Part shown: positions 24,001-27,000 of the stretch, in pieces
How positions within the stretch are numbered: the first letter of the stretch is position 1
Layout: each line of letters begins with the position of its first letter
Virus record (IMG/VR): IMGVR_UViG_2609459850_000002
Strand: one strand, 5' to 3'
Source: a virus
Taxonomy: Duplodnaviria > Heunggongvirae > Uroviricota > Caudoviricetes
Length of the DNA stretch: 50,003 nt
Program-made: the position numbers

Positions 24001-27000
24001 CCACTGTCCTCCAACAATATTTCATCTTCATATCCGACGGAACAATACTTACCCTGCCGGGATGTACAGAATAACAACAGAGTGATAATTAATTTCTGAT
24101 GAAATAATCAGTGTGCAGAAGGACTAAAGATAAACGTTTTCTTCACGCCTTTACACGGCCTGTCCTTCTCAAATCGCCATTTTGCCATCGCCTTTACAAC
24201 CTGCTCATCAAACAGATGGTGCGGCTCTGAACGAATAAACTCAATTCGGGTGACAGTACCATCAGCACCAATATCAAACCTCACATCAACCCGTCCCTTT
24301 ATATAATTTGCCGCTGCATAGGCCGGATATTGTGGTAATGCCTTAACCAACTGTCGGGGCATATCTGTTTTATGTTGCGTACAGCCCATAACCAGAGAAG
24401 ACAACAAAATAATTAACGGAAGATTTCTTTTCATTTTCATTCCCCGCACAGATTAGAATAAGTCTTATTCTAACAATGCCGCCCTGTCGGTCATCAATCC
24501 TCTGCTTAATGGCAACGACAATTATCCGACTTAAATCACAAATCAGACACATGACATAACAGGGCTTGCGAGGTAACACATCGTCCTGTTTCTTCCACCA
24601 TCGCACCGGACTGGCGACTATGAGGGGACAACGCCGCGCTCCGTTAACGCGGTAAACCCCGGTGTGTATCGTTTTTGATTATCCCCGCACACTCGCGCAG
24701 AGGAGTCTCCCTGTCGGGCTGCGGTCTCTGTTAATGAGGGAATACAGCGACGATACGGCGCATCAGCAAAACTTAGTTCAGGCACTGAGTGCGGATATAG
24801 TCCTGTGCCCCTTCCAGCTGCTTCTGCATTGTCATCAACCGTTCTCTGAGGATGAAATAATCCCGTTCAGCGGTGTCTGCCAGTCGGGGGCCGGTTGCAT
24901 TATCCACGCCGGAGGTGCCGGTGGCTTCACGCACGGTACCGGAGCAGGTGGCGTTGATCCGCAGGCGCTTACGACCAGCGGCAACATCAGCACGCAGAGT
25001 TTCATTTTCAGCTCTCGCATCGGCTAATTCCCTCGAGTATCTGGCATCAAGTTCAGCGACATCACGCTGGCGTATCTGCATATCAGTAATTGTCGCGTTC
25101 GCCAGTTTCAGCTCACTGACTTTTTTATCGCGCTGCGCTTTGTAGGTGATGGCGTTATCGCGGTAATGATTCAGCCCCAGACTAAGCACACCACAGGCTA
25201 CCAGCAGGACAATAATCACCACACACAGAACACGGTTCATATCACCACCAACGGATTGCCCAGACCAGAACAGCAATGGCCACAATACGAATGGCAAATG
25301 CCATTGCCCGAATAAGTTCAGCACTCATCTTTTTAAAGTTCACGATTTCAGCGCAATGACCAGTTTTGCCAGCCCATACAGCATCGGAGACACAGCAATA
25401 CCAACAGCCACCCACTTAATAGCAAAAGCCAGCGCTCTGCTGATGTCATCAGTCACTGTCACCCCAGCAGCCCCGACGAAGACAACATCACCCAGGCGAG
25501 GGACAGAAAAAGAGCAACCAGCATTAGTGAAAATGAAATACCGACAATCACACACAGGACCTTTGCCGGCGTTATGAGTTTGTCTGACATAGCTACCCCT
25601 TAATTGCCACAATTAACTGGGATACTACCCATAAAAAAGGGATGCTCCAGACCAGCAAAAATTTCCAGTTTGGTAATTGACTAATCATGAGTCGCAACTC
25701 CCTAATCAGTTTGCTAAAATCAATCAAGGCAGCCTCCCATAGCTTACTGCCATAAAAACAAAACCCCGCTTGCTGCCAACAAACGGGGTTTTTACTTTTA
25801 TTCACTTACATTTTGCCAGTTCGCAGGATTTCGTGTTATCCGTCCGCCTTGGCCAACGTCATTTATTAGCAAAATATTCTGCTTATCTGTCGATTCCCCA
25901 GCACGCCAGCGCGCTCTCCTGGTCACGACGGGATACCTGACCGTAACAGTTATTTGAGCGAATACGGCAGTCCCTGCCACCGTCCTTAATCCACCAGCGA
26001 ATCGCCTCACACGCTCCCCTGCGATCACCTGCATTAATTCGTTTATAAAACGTCGACGGAAAACACTTACCGGGGCCAATGTTGTACGGACAGAATGACG
26101 CGATCCCCGCTTTCTGGGGTTCACTCAATGGCACTCTGATGTTTTTCTCCACCCATGCCAGCGCCTTATCACGCTCAATGGCGTTAACCCGGTCGCATTT
26201 TTCCTTCGACAACTTCATGCCCGGAACGACAGGTTTGCCATCCACCATGATGGCACCACGGCAGATGGTCCAGATACCTGCACCATCACGGTATGCCGTG
26301 GTGTGATTGCCTTCCTTTTCATCCAGAAACTGGTCGAGAATGTCAGGCGCAGGCGCACCAGCGGCAATCAGCGCCAGAACGGCAGCCGACAGGCCGTATC
26401 TGATTTTTGCGTTCATGGATATTTATCAGGATTTATCGGTTTCTGAGCCCTGGATATGTTTATCAGTTCCAGCCTGTTGCCTCAGGCTGCTAACAGGTCA
26501 ATACAATCATGAGGATTATTTATGGACAATAACACCATTTCTCTACAGGAGTTGCTCGACAGCATTTCCAGGCTTCGGGAAGACGTGAATACCCTTACCG
26601 TCGCCTTCTCATATCTGGCATTCTCAATTCCAAGGGAACAGATGCAATCAACGCTGGCATCAATCCAGTTTGAATCATGCAATCCCAAATGGTCTCAGGA
26701 ACAACAAGACTCTTTCAGGCGGCTTGCTGTATTACTGGATGAAAAATATGCTGGTAAAATTACCATTTCGGCGGACTCTTCAGAGAACCCGTAATTATTC
26801 CCGGTAGTTTTCCTCTGTAGGTTATCAACACATCCTGCGCCTCTAAAATTACGGGGCGCTTTTCCGGCGACTGCTCATCCCCTTCACATAACCCGGCAGC
26901 AACATCCAGGAAGACCTGTCTGATGCTCCTTCTGGCTGCTGCCTCATAAAACTCCAGTGCGGCACCTTCAACACGGTCCAGCGAGATGTCCAGGTCAAAA

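What the first reader, a model, noticed from the sequence alone, without database searches (positions are those of the whole stretch)
25241..25882. Cluster of small hydrophobic peptide ORFs between endolysin and Rz
The 640-bp interval contains several short ORFs each encoding a single predicted TM helix, with overlapping frames so not all can be real: a 70-aa ORF, a 43-aa ORF with AAGGGG RBS starting 2 nt after it, a 90-aa alternative frame with TTG start, and a ~28-aa ORF ([28 protein letters not shown]). Two share an A-x-AFAI-[KR]-x-VA-x-x motif, suggesting duplication. Small membrane peptides in a lysis cassette could be antiholin-like regulators, lysis inhibitors or type I toxin-like genes.
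Basis: seen in the sequence. Interest (0 to 1): 0.45.

Follow-up and report, generated by a model that had tools for sequence, protein, structure and literature searches.

The report
Mini membrane-protein genes in lysis cassette
Between the cell-wall-degrading enzyme gene and the outer-membrane-disrupting gene of an E. coli prophage lie four tightly packed genes for tiny (28-44 residue) membrane peptides; they belong to widespread, shuffling phage families that are conserved but have never been given a function.

Summary
The 640-bp gap between lysozyme R (25883-26416) and spanin Rz (24773-25240), minus strand, holds a strong terminator hairpin followed by four abutting small hydrophobic ORFs. 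These are A (44 aa, TTG start), B (43 aa), C (38-40 aa, GTG start) and D (28 aa).

The 70-, 90- and 57-aa readings are over-extensions. They cover the terminator or the alternate frame of a neighbouring ORF.

Comparison of about 280 related loci shows that A, B and C/D are separate mobile families. They recur in different orders and combinations: A' alone, C-B, C-D, ant-B, A-B-C-D. 75 of 76 R-Rz intervals next to this lysozyme type carry at least one. Each annotated frame shows purifying selection (pN/pS 0.2-0.4, against 0.7-3.5 in the other same-strand frames) and has its own Shine-Dalgarno sequence or a coupled start. A Sakai homologue of B was called translated by published Ribo-seq.

C and D are paralogues sharing an AxAFAI[KR] core. 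The window's C is an N-terminally truncated copy.

There is no Pfam, NCBIfam, PADLOC or Rfam match and no published function. Relatives sit mostly between endolysin and spanin, beside four endolysin types, but also in tail, baseplate and portal regions.

Best guess: late-expressed inner-membrane miniproteins that tune lysis. This function is inferred, not shown.

The parts
25750..25792 (-). Intrinsic-terminator hairpin with U-tract, just downstream of lysozyme R and upstream of the small ORFs. It underlies the spurious first 16 codons of the '70-aa ORF'.
   Evidence: 15-pair stem followed by GTTTTTATGG.: -25.2 kcal/mol, z = -5.7 on the minus strand; only -15.3 kcal/mol on the plus strand. A hairpin at the same place is kept in every architecture, including a different-sequence version in L180.
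25593..25727 (-). ORF A: 44 aa from TTG at 25727 (M)IDFSKLIRELRLMISQLPNWKFLLVWSIPFLWVVSQLIVAIKG, with GGGAGG 5 nt upstream. An alternative ATG at 25688 would give 31 aa. Family A (phrog_6632).
   Evidence: the PHROG hit covers residues 28-69 of the 70-aa frame; 45-aa homologues with TTG/GTG starts and the DFSKLIRExRxM N-terminus occur in Salmonella, Enterobacter, Klebsiella, Providencia and Pseudomonas phages. A' has pN/pS 0.18. A versus A'' core shows 6 synonymous versus 3 non-synonymous codon changes.
25459..25590 (-). ORF B: 43 aa MSDKLITPAKVLCVIVGISFSLMLVALFLSLAWVMLSSSGLLG, with AAGGGG 5 nt upstream of the ATG. It starts 2 nt after the stop of A. Family B (phrog_4906).
   Evidence: full-length tblastn matches in 276 phage records at 62-100% identity; 0/26 distinct alleles carry an internal stop; pN/pS is 0.37 against 0.82 and 1.58 in the other same-strand frames; a Shine-Dalgarno sequence is present in at least five different upstream contexts; the Sakai homologue XECs191/ECs_1966 has a Ribo-seq signal.
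25340..25462 (-). ORF C, an N-terminally truncated copy of the C/D family. It is 40 aa from GTG 25462 (overlapping the B stop as GTGA) or 38 aa from GTG 25456: (M)TDDISRALAFAIKWVAVGIAVSPMLYGLAKLVIALKS. The 90-aa (TTG 25612) and PGAP 51-aa (CTG 25495) versions are over-extensions into the alternate frame of B.
   Evidence: in other loci only residues 53-90 are conserved, preceded by a different N-terminus (MKNGLELKAP...); core pN/pS 0.21, 25/25 alleles intact; this Val codon is GTG here but GTA in all full-length copies; the window copy lacks the most constrained motif. Whether this copy is translated is uncertain.
25242..25328 (-). ORF D: 28 aa [28 protein letters not shown], a paralogue of C. 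It starts 11 nt after the stop of C, and its own stop lies 1 nt before the Rz ATG. The 57-aa GTG extension is spurious.
   Evidence: homology to C; pN/pS 0.42-0.44 against 0.8-1.9; 11 of 12 alleles intact; the same ORF with its own ATG follows different upstream genes (C or E), coupled by an 11-nt gap or an ATGA overlap.
24773..25240 (-). Rz i-spanin gene, with Rz1 o-spanin embedded at 24835-25020. This is the downstream neighbour, translationally abutting D.
   Evidence: PF03245, E = 7.5e-50. Rz1 frame with a lipobox (LVVSAC).
25883..26416 (-). Lysozyme R (RrrQ-type, PF00959) with an Ala/Gly/Leu-rich N-terminal SAR-like segment. This is the upstream neighbour.
   Evidence: PF00959, E = 1.3e-23. 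PGAP annotation 'lysozyme / rrrQ'.
27109..27324 (-). S21-family class II (pin)holin with a dual start (M1, M4). The DUF1327/YdfR gene at 26760-27104 lies between it and R. Together they form the start of the lysis cassette.
   Evidence: PF04971, E = 9e-33; PF07041, E = 7e-43. PGAP annotation.

Best explanation
The interval carries an accessory array of four real, or recently real, genes for miniature single-helix inner-membrane peptides. They come from three mobile phage families: A, B and C/D.

The array follows an intrinsic terminator and sits between the lysozyme gene R and the spanin genes Rz/Rz1 of a lambdoid prophage that uses an S21-type holin. The genes have no promoter of their own that I could find. 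They lie 1-11 nt apart, or overlap, and the last one ends 1 nt before Rz. They should therefore be made only when Q-antiterminated late transcription reads through the hairpin, with ribosomes passing from one cistron to the next and on into Rz.

Each product is little more than a juxtamembrane amphipathic turn plus one hydrophobic helix.

The most likely role is inferred, not shown. The peptides accumulate in the inner membrane late in infection and tune the membrane step of lysis. That step could be the timing of pinholin triggering, release of the membrane-tethered endolysin, or spanin action. They would act either by helix-helix contacts or by generally lowering membrane integrity or proton-motive force. 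They are dispensable for lysis as such.

I put about 0.85 on the structural part: real, late, coupled miniprotein genes, with the longer frames being artefacts. I put about 0.35-0.4 on the lysis-tuning function.
For: Anatomy:
- The terminator is stronger on the lysis strand.
- No sigma-70-like promoter was found on the minus strand in the interval.

The genes are real:
- A, B, C and D recur independently in different orders: A' alone, Dlong alone, C-D, C-B, ant-B', A-B-C-D.
- 75 of 76 complete R-Rz intervals carry at least one.
- pN/pS in the annotated frame is 0.28 for full-length C, 0.21 for the C core, 0.37-0.42 for B, 0.42-0.44 for D and 0.18 for A'. Other same-strand frames give 0.7-3.5.
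- Internal stops occur in 0/28, 0/26 and 0/12 alleles.
- Variable sites concentrate at third codon positions: 15/6/34 for C.
- Published Ribo-seq called the Sakai B homologue translated (PMC5597208).
- Plaque-forming phages such as PhiR5_1 carry B, C and D.

Link to lysis:
- B lies immediately upstream of the spanin gene, or of a small lipoprotein gene, wherever its context was examined: the 267 IMG/VR and RefSeq loci and Sakai Sp10. Its position within the 276 matching phage records was not inspected record by record.
- C/D and A sit between endolysin and spanin beside four unrelated endolysin types: PF00959 RrrQ-type, a second lysozyme at 33% identity, GH108 and GH19.

Precedent: small single-pass proteins control lysis in pinholin/SAR-endolysin phages. 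Examples are LambdaSo Lcc6 (bioRxiv 10.1101/2024.01.23.576932) and the Mu gp25 releasin (PMC9239132).

Structure: AF2 predicts one long helix covering residues 23-59 of the 60-aa C form.
Against: - No experiment bears on function.
- The families are absent from working cassettes. K-12 Qin rrrQ and rzpQ overlap directly, and L136 has no small ORF. So they are not core lysis genes.
- Relatives of A lie between baseplate genes (SEN34), between tail K- and I-like genes (Pseudomonas phages) and before a portal-like gene.
- A distant C/D member follows tail-fibre genes. L166-type arrays are not next to an endolysin.
- The association is not tied to one holin or endolysin type. That argues against a specific protein partner.
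- The endolysin-spanin junction may simply be a permissive insertion site. An antirepressor gene sits there too.
- The window's C copy lacks the most constrained part of its family, MKNGLELKAP (pN/pS 0.06), and has only GTG starts. It may be a dead remnant.
- D has no clear Shine-Dalgarno sequence.
- The Ribo-seq signal for the B homologue is weak (translatome RPKM 12.6, RCV 0.43, coverage 0.55) and comes from uninduced cultures.
Confidence: 0.42

Rival explanations
1. The peptides are accessory membrane miniproteins unrelated to lysis. They would bind and inhibit a host inner-membrane protein or block an incoming phage, giving superinfection exclusion, host takeover or anti-defence. They happen to sit at the R-Rz junction because that junction tolerates insertions.
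For: Relatives of A and C/D occur in tail, baseplate, tail-fibre and portal neighbourhoods. The families turn over quickly and shuffle as modules, 1-4 per locus. An unrelated antirepressor gene occupies the same junction in Stx phages. The B homologue gives transcript and ribosome signal in uninduced Sakai cultures. From general knowledge, not tested here: small phage membrane proteins such as the D3 Iap peptide and the HK97 gp15 moron act this way.
Against: No promoter was found, and a strong terminator lies directly upstream. The ORFs are translationally chained into essential late genes instead of being flanked by their own promoter and terminator. There is no PADLOC hit. Three unrelated families show the same preference for the endolysin-spanin junction, next to four endolysin types.
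Confidence: 0.3
2. The ORFs are mainly a ribosome relay. After a terminator-bearing segment was inserted between R and Rz, short ORFs were kept only to carry translating ribosomes through to the Rz start, and the peptide sequences do not matter. Alternatively, they are decaying remnants.
For: In every architecture the last small ORF stops within about 12 nt of the Rz start, or overlaps it as GTGA. In cassettes without the insertion, R itself abuts Rz. The window's C is a truncated copy.
Against: The amino-acid sequences show purifying selection in all families tested. The same peptides are conserved across genera and in contexts without Rz. Protein motifs such as AxAFAI[KR], MKNGLExxAP, DFSKLIRE and the C-terminal RWW are conserved.
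Confidence: 0.08
3. One or more of the ORFs is a type I toxin whose translation is checked by an antisense RNA. Such an RNA could start at the plus-strand promoter-like site at 25584-25613 and end at the bidirectional hairpin.
For: The peptides are under 50 aa, hydrophobic and single-helix, like TisB, Hok and Ldr. One promoter-like site (CTGACA-18-CACAAT with a TG) faces antisense across the start of A. The hairpin also folds on the plus strand at -15.3 kcal/mol.
Against: The number of promoter-like sites in the region equals the shuffle expectation (4 against 4.3). There is no Rfam hit. No Pfam toxin family matches. The ORFs form a tight polycistronic chain inside a late operon and are not a stand-alone locus with a long 5' UTR. 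The hairpin is markedly better on the lysis strand.
Confidence: 0.04
4. Only one frame is a real gene, and the other ORFs are chance products of T-rich sequence.
For: Small-ORF calls are error-prone. PGAP annotations differ between identical loci, with A called in some and not others, and C is given a CTG start.
Against: Each of A, B, C and D is found on its own or in other combinations with the frame intact. The shuffle control gives 0.48 hydrophobic ORFs against 4 observed.
Confidence: 0.05

Closest known systems
Lcc6 of Shewanella phage LambdaSo (bioRxiv 10.1101/2024.01.23.576932)
   Same: It is a small (65 aa) single-pass inner-membrane protein of a lambdoid temperate phage whose lysis uses a pinholin, a SAR endolysin and Rz/Rz1. 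It acts at the holin step and is neither holin, endolysin nor spanin.
   Different: Lcc6 has an N-terminal TM helix with a 43-aa cytoplasmic tail, is encoded far from the lysis cassette and is strictly required for lysis. The peptides here are 28-48 aa with the helix at the C-terminal end, sit inside the cassette and are absent from many working cassettes. No sequence comparison was possible because the Lcc6 sequence was not in hand.
Mu gp25 releasin (DUF2730; PMC9239132)
   Same: It is a membrane-tethered accessory lysis protein encoded a few genes from a SAR endolysin, and it promotes the endolysin's release from the membrane.
   Different: gp25 is 99 aa, N-out/C-in, with a 73-aa anionic cytoplasmic domain, and belongs to Pfam DUF2730. 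None of the peptides here hits that or any other Pfam family, and they have no soluble domain.
Antiholins and dual-start holin products (lambda S107, S21-71, T4 RI). Stated from general knowledge; the reviews are listed.
   Same: They are small membrane proteins of the lysis cassette that set lysis timing through interactions within the membrane.
   Different: Antiholins are isoforms of, or specific binders to, one holin. The families here are unrelated in sequence to the cassette's holin and occur with at least three holin sets (S21-type; Phage_holin_8 plus holin_3_7; and another).
Type I toxins (Hok, TisB, Ldr, Ibs, ShoB)
   Same: The size, hydrophobicity and single helix are similar, and both could depolarise the inner membrane.
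   Different: Here there is no antisense RNA gene, no stand-alone transcription unit and no family hit.
Uncharacterised PHROG families phrog_6632 (A), phrog_4906 (B) and phrog_3246/1115/4493 (C and D)
   Same: The window peptides are members by sequence (E = 1e-12, 4.5e-21, 1.3e-27 and 3.8e-06).
   Different: These families carry no functional annotation, so membership says nothing about what the peptides do.
Phage morons encoding membrane proteins (lambda bor/lom, HK97 gp15, D3 Iap). Stated from general knowledge.
   Same: They are small accessory membrane-protein genes inserted between conserved late genes, with mosaic distribution among temperate phages.
   Different: Morons carry their own promoter and terminator and are expressed from the prophage. 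Here there is a terminator upstream, no terminator downstream, no detectable promoter, and direct translational coupling into Rz.

Membership tests
Holins / pinholins (e.g. Pfam Phage_holin_2_1, S21) | Sequence match to a holin family profile | tested here: not met
   No Pfam hit for A, B, C or D, or for the full-length forms, at E up to 1-5. The cassette's own holin at 27109-27324 hits PF04971 at 9e-33.
Holins / pinholins | At least one TM domain (usually 2-3) plus a charged, hydrophilic C-terminal cytoplasmic tail | tested here: not met
   Each peptide has one hydrophobic helix at its C-terminal end and then 0-3 residues (KG, G, KS, RWW). This follows from the sequences and the AF2 helix at 23-59.
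Holins / pinholins | Lethal, timed hole formation that releases or activates the endolysin | not testable with these tools
   This needs induction and expression experiments.
Releasin (Mu gp25, DUF2730) | DUF2730 domain: N-terminal TM helix (N-out, C-in) plus a cytoplasmic domain of about 70 aa | tested here: not met
   No Pfam hit. The peptides are 28-48 aa and have no soluble domain.
Type I toxin-antitoxin | Hydrophobic toxin peptide of under about 60 aa | tested here: met
   28-44 aa, with maximum 17-residue hydropathy of 1.9-2.8.
Type I toxin-antitoxin | Cis- or trans-encoded antisense RNA with its own promoter and terminator | tested here: inconclusive
   No Rfam match at E up to 1. There is one plus-strand promoter-like site at 25584-25613, but the number of sites in the region equals the shuffle expectation. 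No transcript data were available.
Type I toxin-antitoxin | Independent toxin transcription unit | tested here: not met
   The four ORFs are separated by 2 nt, a GTGA overlap and 11 nt, then 1 nt before Rz, inside the late lysis operon.
Spanins (Rz/Rz1 or unimolecular spanins) | A periplasmic domain spanning the envelope, and for the o-spanin a lipobox | tested here: not met
   The peptides have no periplasmic domain and no lipobox. Rz (PF03245) and the embedded Rz1 are present separately.
Moron (Juhala et al. definition, from general knowledge) | Own promoter upstream and terminator downstream; expressed from the prophage | tested here: not met
   The terminator lies upstream, not downstream. 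No minus-strand promoter-like site was found in 25241-25882. Expression state was not testable here; only weak Ribo-seq exists, for a homologue in uninduced cells.
PHROG phrog_4906 (B), phrog_6632 (A), phrog_3246/4493 (C, D) | Significant profile match over most of the family model | tested here: met
   B matches 1-43 to profile 7-49/49, E = 4.5e-21. A matches 28-69 to 2-43/45, E = 1.3e-12. C matches 2-52 to 40-90/90, E = 1.3e-27. D matches 2-28 to 24-54/56, E = 3.8e-06.

The most novel reading that the evidence does not exclude
Arrays of interchangeable, helix-only miniproteins may form an unrecognised class of phage late genes that act as a tunable 'fuse' for lysis. The families involved are A, B, C/D, E and F, many of them ending in RWW. 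By accumulating in the inner membrane they would set when pinholins trigger and when membrane-tethered endolysins are released. The number and type of peptides would be the knob that recombination turns. In Stx phages this would also set the timing of Shiga-toxin release.
Probability: 0.2. Interest if true: 0.65.

Novelty: new variant of a known kind. Interest (0 to 1): 0.4.

Why it matters
Some part of this 701-bp region is present in 2079 of 5426 complete E. coli genomes. The B family is present in 276 sequenced phages, most of them Shiga-toxin converting. Even so, none of the peptides has a name, a Pfam family or a tested function.

They lie inside the cassette that decides when an induced cell bursts. 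For Stx phages that moment is also when toxin is released.

If the peptides tune lysis, they add a component to the holin-endolysin-spanin scheme for pinholin/SAR-endolysin phages. The recent Lcc6 and releasin findings point in the same direction.

If they do something else, they are still a large, conserved set of phage miniproteins that annotation pipelines handle inconsistently. Examples seen here are a 70-aa model, a CTG-started 51-aa model, and no annotation at all in SPN3UB and many Stx phage records.

Tried and rejected
**Searches that found nothing**
- Pfam, NCBIfam and PADLOC scans of all four peptides and the full-length family forms gave no hit.
- An Rfam E-value scan of 23500-28000 gave no hit.
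- BLASTP of the peptides against the cassette's own holin, R, Rz, Rz1 and DUF1327 showed only a 7-residue similarity between B and the Rz N-terminus (E 0.1-0.3 in a tiny database). I rejected this as chance.
- A literature search for the four RefSeq accessions returned 0 papers. Searches on lysis-cassette small proteins, 'between R and Rz', and a phage small-protein review found no description of these genes.

**Frames rejected**
- The 70-aa ORF. Its first 16 codons are the terminator hairpin, which is conserved in all architectures whatever follows it.
- The 90-aa ORF and the PGAP 51-aa model. Residues 1-52 are the alternate frame of B and disappear wherever C is not preceded by B.
- The 57-aa extension of D.
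- The 33-aa MTSAERW... frame inside C. Its hydrophobic core takes L-to-R, L-to-P and V-to-S changes between alleles, and the +1 frame has stops in 28/28 alleles over the full length.
- The 73-aa antisense ORF. Only the wobble-aligned antisense frame has a lowish pN/pS (0.45-0.53), as expected for the mirror image of a coding frame.

**Other**
- The long N-terminal extension of 60-aa C (codons 2-12) shows no constraint among close alleles (pN/pS 1.55). The real start of the full-length form is probably M13.
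Full report
**Context.** The window is a lambdoid E. coli prophage lying in reverse orientation (tail, head and terminase genes, then the lysis genes). The lysis cassette is on the minus strand:
- a SASA/NanS-p-like esterase at 27475-29346;
- an S21-family holin with a dual start at 27109-27324 (PF04971, E = 9e-33);
- a DUF1327/YdfR gene at 26760-27104;
- lysozyme R at 25883-26416 (PF00959);
- Rz at 24773-25240 (PF03245), with Rz1 embedded;
- a TonB_C-domain lipoprotein gene at 24108-24449.

The finding's coordinates, 25241-25882, are exactly the R-Rz gap. 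Identical DNA occurs in many complete E. coli genomes. 2079 of 5426 genomes match part of the 701-bp query and 587 match at least 80% of it. RefSeq annotates three or four 'hypothetical proteins' there.

**Check of the observation.** The shared A-x-AFAI-[KR] motif is real.

A dinucleotide-preserving shuffle control gives 0.48 +/- 0.66 hydrophobic ORFs on the coding strand, against 4 observed. None of 1000 shuffles reached 4, and the opposite strand has none. At that cut-off the four are A, B, D and an alternate frame inside C. C itself scores just below it.

**Anatomy.** Reading the minus strand from R, the interval contains the following.
- **Spacer and terminator.** An 80-nt spacer leads to a 15-pair hairpin with a U-tract at 25792-25750. 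The hairpin folds at -25.2 kcal/mol (z = -5.7) on this strand but only -15.3 kcal/mol on the other, because several pairs are G.U.
- **ORF A.** GGGAGG, 5 nt, then TTG at 25727. This gives 44 aa, ending at 25593.
- **ORF B.** It starts 2 nt later at ATG 25590, preceded by AAGGGG. It is 43 aa and ends at 25459.
- **ORF C.** Its GTG at 25462 overlaps the B stop as GTGA, and a second GTG lies at 25456. This gives 40 or 38 aa, ending at 25340.
- **ORF D.** It starts 11 nt later at ATG 25328. It is 28 aa and ends at 25242.
- **Rz.** Its ATG follows 1 nt later, at 25240.

No minus-strand promoter-like site lies in the interval.

**Which frames are real.** I collected 267 related loci from IMG/VR and RefSeq and mapped the peptides onto them.

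Among the 76 complete R-Rz intervals next to close relatives of this lysozyme, the contents were:

| Content of the interval | Loci |
|---|---|
| A' alone (45 aa) | 25 |
| A-B-C-D, the window's type | 24 |
| C-B, in that order | 15 |
| Gene of about 180-190 aa (annotated antirepressor in Sakai Sp10), then B' | 6 |
| A long form of D alone | 3 |
| C-D | 1 |
| A-B after a large insert | 1 |
| Nothing | 1 |

The units are therefore independent modules.

This resolves the overlapping frames:
- Wherever C is not preceded by B, only residues 53-90 of the '90-aa ORF' are conserved, and they follow a different N-terminus (MKNGLELKAP...). Residues 1-52 are simply the alternate frame of B. PGAP's 51-aa model starts at a CTG inside that stretch.
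- The first 16 codons of the '70-aa ORF' are the terminator hairpin, which is present in every architecture.
- The 57-aa extension of D and the 33-aa frame inside C are not conserved as peptides.

**Evidence for coding.** I used Nei-Gojobori counts summed over pairs of distinct alleles. Pairs are not independent, so these are indicative and are not formal tests.

| Unit | pN/pS, annotated frame | pN/pS, other same-strand frames |
|---|---|---|
| Full-length C | 0.28 | 0.69 / 1.76 |
| 38-aa C core | 0.21 | 0.68 / 3.49 |
| B | 0.37-0.42 | 0.8 / 1.4-1.6 |
| D | 0.42-0.44 | 0.8 / 1.7-1.9 |
| A' | 0.18 | 1.9 / 0.9 |

- There are no internal stops in 28, 26 and 12 alleles of C, B and D. Variation concentrates at third positions.
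- Only the wobble-aligned antisense frame comes close (0.45-0.53), as expected for a mirror image.
- The window's A has almost no allelic variation. Against the A'' variant, however, its helix shows 6 synonymous and 3 non-synonymous codon changes.
- 45-aa homologues with the same DFSKLIRExRxM N-terminus and a TTG/GTG start occur in phages or prophages of Salmonella, Enterobacter, Citrobacter, Klebsiella, Providencia and Pseudomonas. This supports the 44-aa TTG start over the internal ATG.
- B keeps a Shine-Dalgarno sequence in at least five different upstream contexts. D has none, but is always coupled to the preceding ORF by an 11-nt gap or an ATGA overlap.
- A published Ribo-seq study of O157:H7 Sakai lists the B homologue as the translated novel gene XECs191. 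In LB it gave transcriptome RPKM 30.0, translatome RPKM 12.6, RCV 0.43 and coverage 0.55. The study's classifier called it 'real' and predicted an inner-membrane protein with 1 TM helix (PMC5597208). It is now ECs_1966, between the antirepressor and Rz of prophage Sp10. This support is weak and comes from uninduced cells.

**The C/D family.** An exhaustive profile search of 1.84 billion representative proteins found only 28 at E <= 0.001. All are 20-90 aa apart from one 928-aa protein with a weak, partial match that was not examined. Those with a source name come from Escherichia, Shigella and Salmonella. The most distant members come from metagenomic contigs whose host is unknown.

The pattern is a variable, possibly untranslated, basic leader, then MKNGLExxAP, then xxDxxRAxAFAI[KR], then one of two helix tails: WVAVGIAVSPxLYGLAKLIIALKS, or [14 protein letters not shown]. 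All four combinations of N-terminus and tail exist (P0203, P0210), so recombination occurs at the AFAI core.

Constraint is strongest on MKNGLELKAP (pN/pS 0.06) and absent from codons 2-12 (1.55). AF2 predicts a short N-terminal helix, a loop and one long helix at 23-59, with pLDDT 85-90 over residues 31-60.

The window's C and D correspond to that long helix alone. D is a recurrent short form with its own ATG. C is a copy cut exactly at VTDD and joined to the B stop. Its Val codon reads GTG here but GTA in all 100 full-length copies, which suggests a start was acquired there. Its translation nevertheless remains uncertain.

**Where relatives sit.**
- **B** is immediately upstream of the spanin gene, or of a 60-aa lipoprotein gene, in every locus whose context I examined. 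The 276 phage records that match B were not inspected individually.
- **C/D and A** lie between endolysin and spanin beside four endolysin types:
  - the RrrQ-type lysozyme;
  - a second lysozyme at 33% identity (L165);
  - GH108/PG_binding_3 with Phage_holin_8 and holin_3_7 (the 74 locus entries of the C-B type; cassette genes identified in L180);
  - GH19 in Enterobacter.
- **The association is not exclusive.**
  - A-family genes lie between baseplate genes in Salmonella phage SEN34.
  - They lie between tail K- and I-like genes in Pseudomonas aeruginosa phages, next to a small ORF of the same PHROG as the E. coli 'F' peptide.
  - They lie before a portal-like gene in a metagenomic contig.
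  - A distant C/D member follows tail-fibre genes.
  - L166-type arrays lie among structural genes.
- Two further single-helix families, E and F, occur in four-gene arrays (F, C-variant, E, D) in the same junction.
- K-12 Qin has no such genes. There, rrrQ overlaps rzpQ.

**What it is and how it probably works.**

Shown:
- The interval is a tightly chained array of conserved small ORFs for single-helix hydrophobic peptides.
- The array follows a strand-specific terminator and feeds into Rz.
- It belongs to mobile families that are widespread in temperate phages of enterobacteria, and family A also in Pseudomonas.

Inferred:
- The ORFs are expressed only in Q-antiterminated late transcription.
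- The peptides insert in the inner membrane.
- They modulate the membrane step of lysis.

The lysis inference rests on position, which recurs beside unrelated endolysins for three unrelated families. It also rests on precedent: Lcc6 in LambdaSo and the releasin in Mu. The peptides associate with several holin/endolysin systems. A generic mechanism such as membrane perturbation or loss of proton-motive force, which triggers holins and frees SAR endolysins, therefore fits better than a specific partner. I put about 0.35-0.4 on this function.

The main rival, at about 0.3, is a late or lysogenic membrane function unrelated to lysis, such as exclusion or inhibition of a host membrane protein. The non-lysis contexts and the rapid modular turnover favour it. 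The ribosome-relay, type I toxin and single-real-gene readings are less likely, for the reasons given under each.

**Comparison with known systems and novelty.** The peptides are members of uncharacterised PHROGs and of nothing else.
- They fail the sequence and architecture criteria for holins, releasin, spanins and type I toxin loci.
- They lack the promoter/terminator layout of morons.
- They work, at most, 'like' small accessory lysis proteins.

The ORFs themselves are already in databases as hypothetical proteins, and one was flagged by Ribo-seq, so their existence is not new. What appears undescribed in the literature I could search is threefold:
- their organisation as shuffling arrays of helix-only miniproteins;
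- their near-universal presence at this junction, in 75 of 76 intervals;
- the family anatomy.

This is moderately interesting and directly testable, but no surprising mechanism has been demonstrated.

Noticed in passing
window 26522-26794 (+): A 90-aa ORF lies on the opposite strand between the DUF1327/YdfR gene and lysozyme R. It is annotated as hypothetical (WP_000369850) in identical loci and has no Pfam or PADLOC hit. Its 3' end overlaps the 3' end of the DUF1327 gene by 35 nt. It is an oddly placed antisense-oriented gene inside a lysis cassette.
   Followed up: partly
window 24108-24449 (-): A lipoprotein with a TonB C-terminal domain (PF03544, E = 9e-15) sits in the position bor occupies in lambda. 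A promoter-like site (ATGACC-16-TAGAAT, with TG) lies just upstream at 24494-24467. It looks like a classic moron.
   Followed up: partly
window 30874-31033 (-): tRNA-Arg(tcg) and tRNA-Met(cat) genes lie upstream of the SASA/NanS-p-like esterase gene (27475-29346), the place where Stx phages carry their tRNAs and toxin genes. No stx-sized ORF is present there.
   Followed up: no
window 25340-25495 (-): The RefSeq/PGAP protein model WP_042004856 (51 aa) for ORF C starts at a CTG inside the alternate frame of ORF B. Comparative data show that only the last 38-40 residues are conserved, so the model is probably mis-started. Some database entries (P0184) are B-C fusions.
   Followed up: yes
L180 2856-3037 (also L166 2967-): In cassettes with a GH108 endolysin, the C-B pair is followed by a 60-aa lipoprotein (phrog_7528, unknown function). 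No Rz/Rz1-like pair is evident in the next 2 kb. Where the spanin function resides in these phages is unclear.
   Followed up: partly
L216 2314-2780; L268 2671-2787: Two more single-helix small-ORF families exist: E (49 aa) and F (50 aa, phrog_12997). They form a four-gene array F, C-variant, E, D in the same R-Rz junction. An F-like 38-aa ORF sits right after the A-like ORF between tail genes of Pseudomonas phage YMC11/02/R656, so these families travel together across genera.
   Followed up: partly
window 25242-25250; L270 2120-2132; L271 725-737: Many A- and D-type peptides end in (I/V)RWW directly before the next gene's start, whether that gene is Rz, a baseplate wedge gene or a portal-like gene. 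The RWW end is therefore a feature of the peptide family and is not merely the Rz ribosome-binding region. R itself contains AIRWW (residues 138-142), probably by coincidence.
   Followed up: partly
L269 2001-2139 (Salmonella phage SPN3UB) and many Stx phage records: The small ORFs are unannotated in a large share of GenBank phage records ('none' under the match), although an intact 45-aa or 43-aa ORF is present.
   Followed up: no
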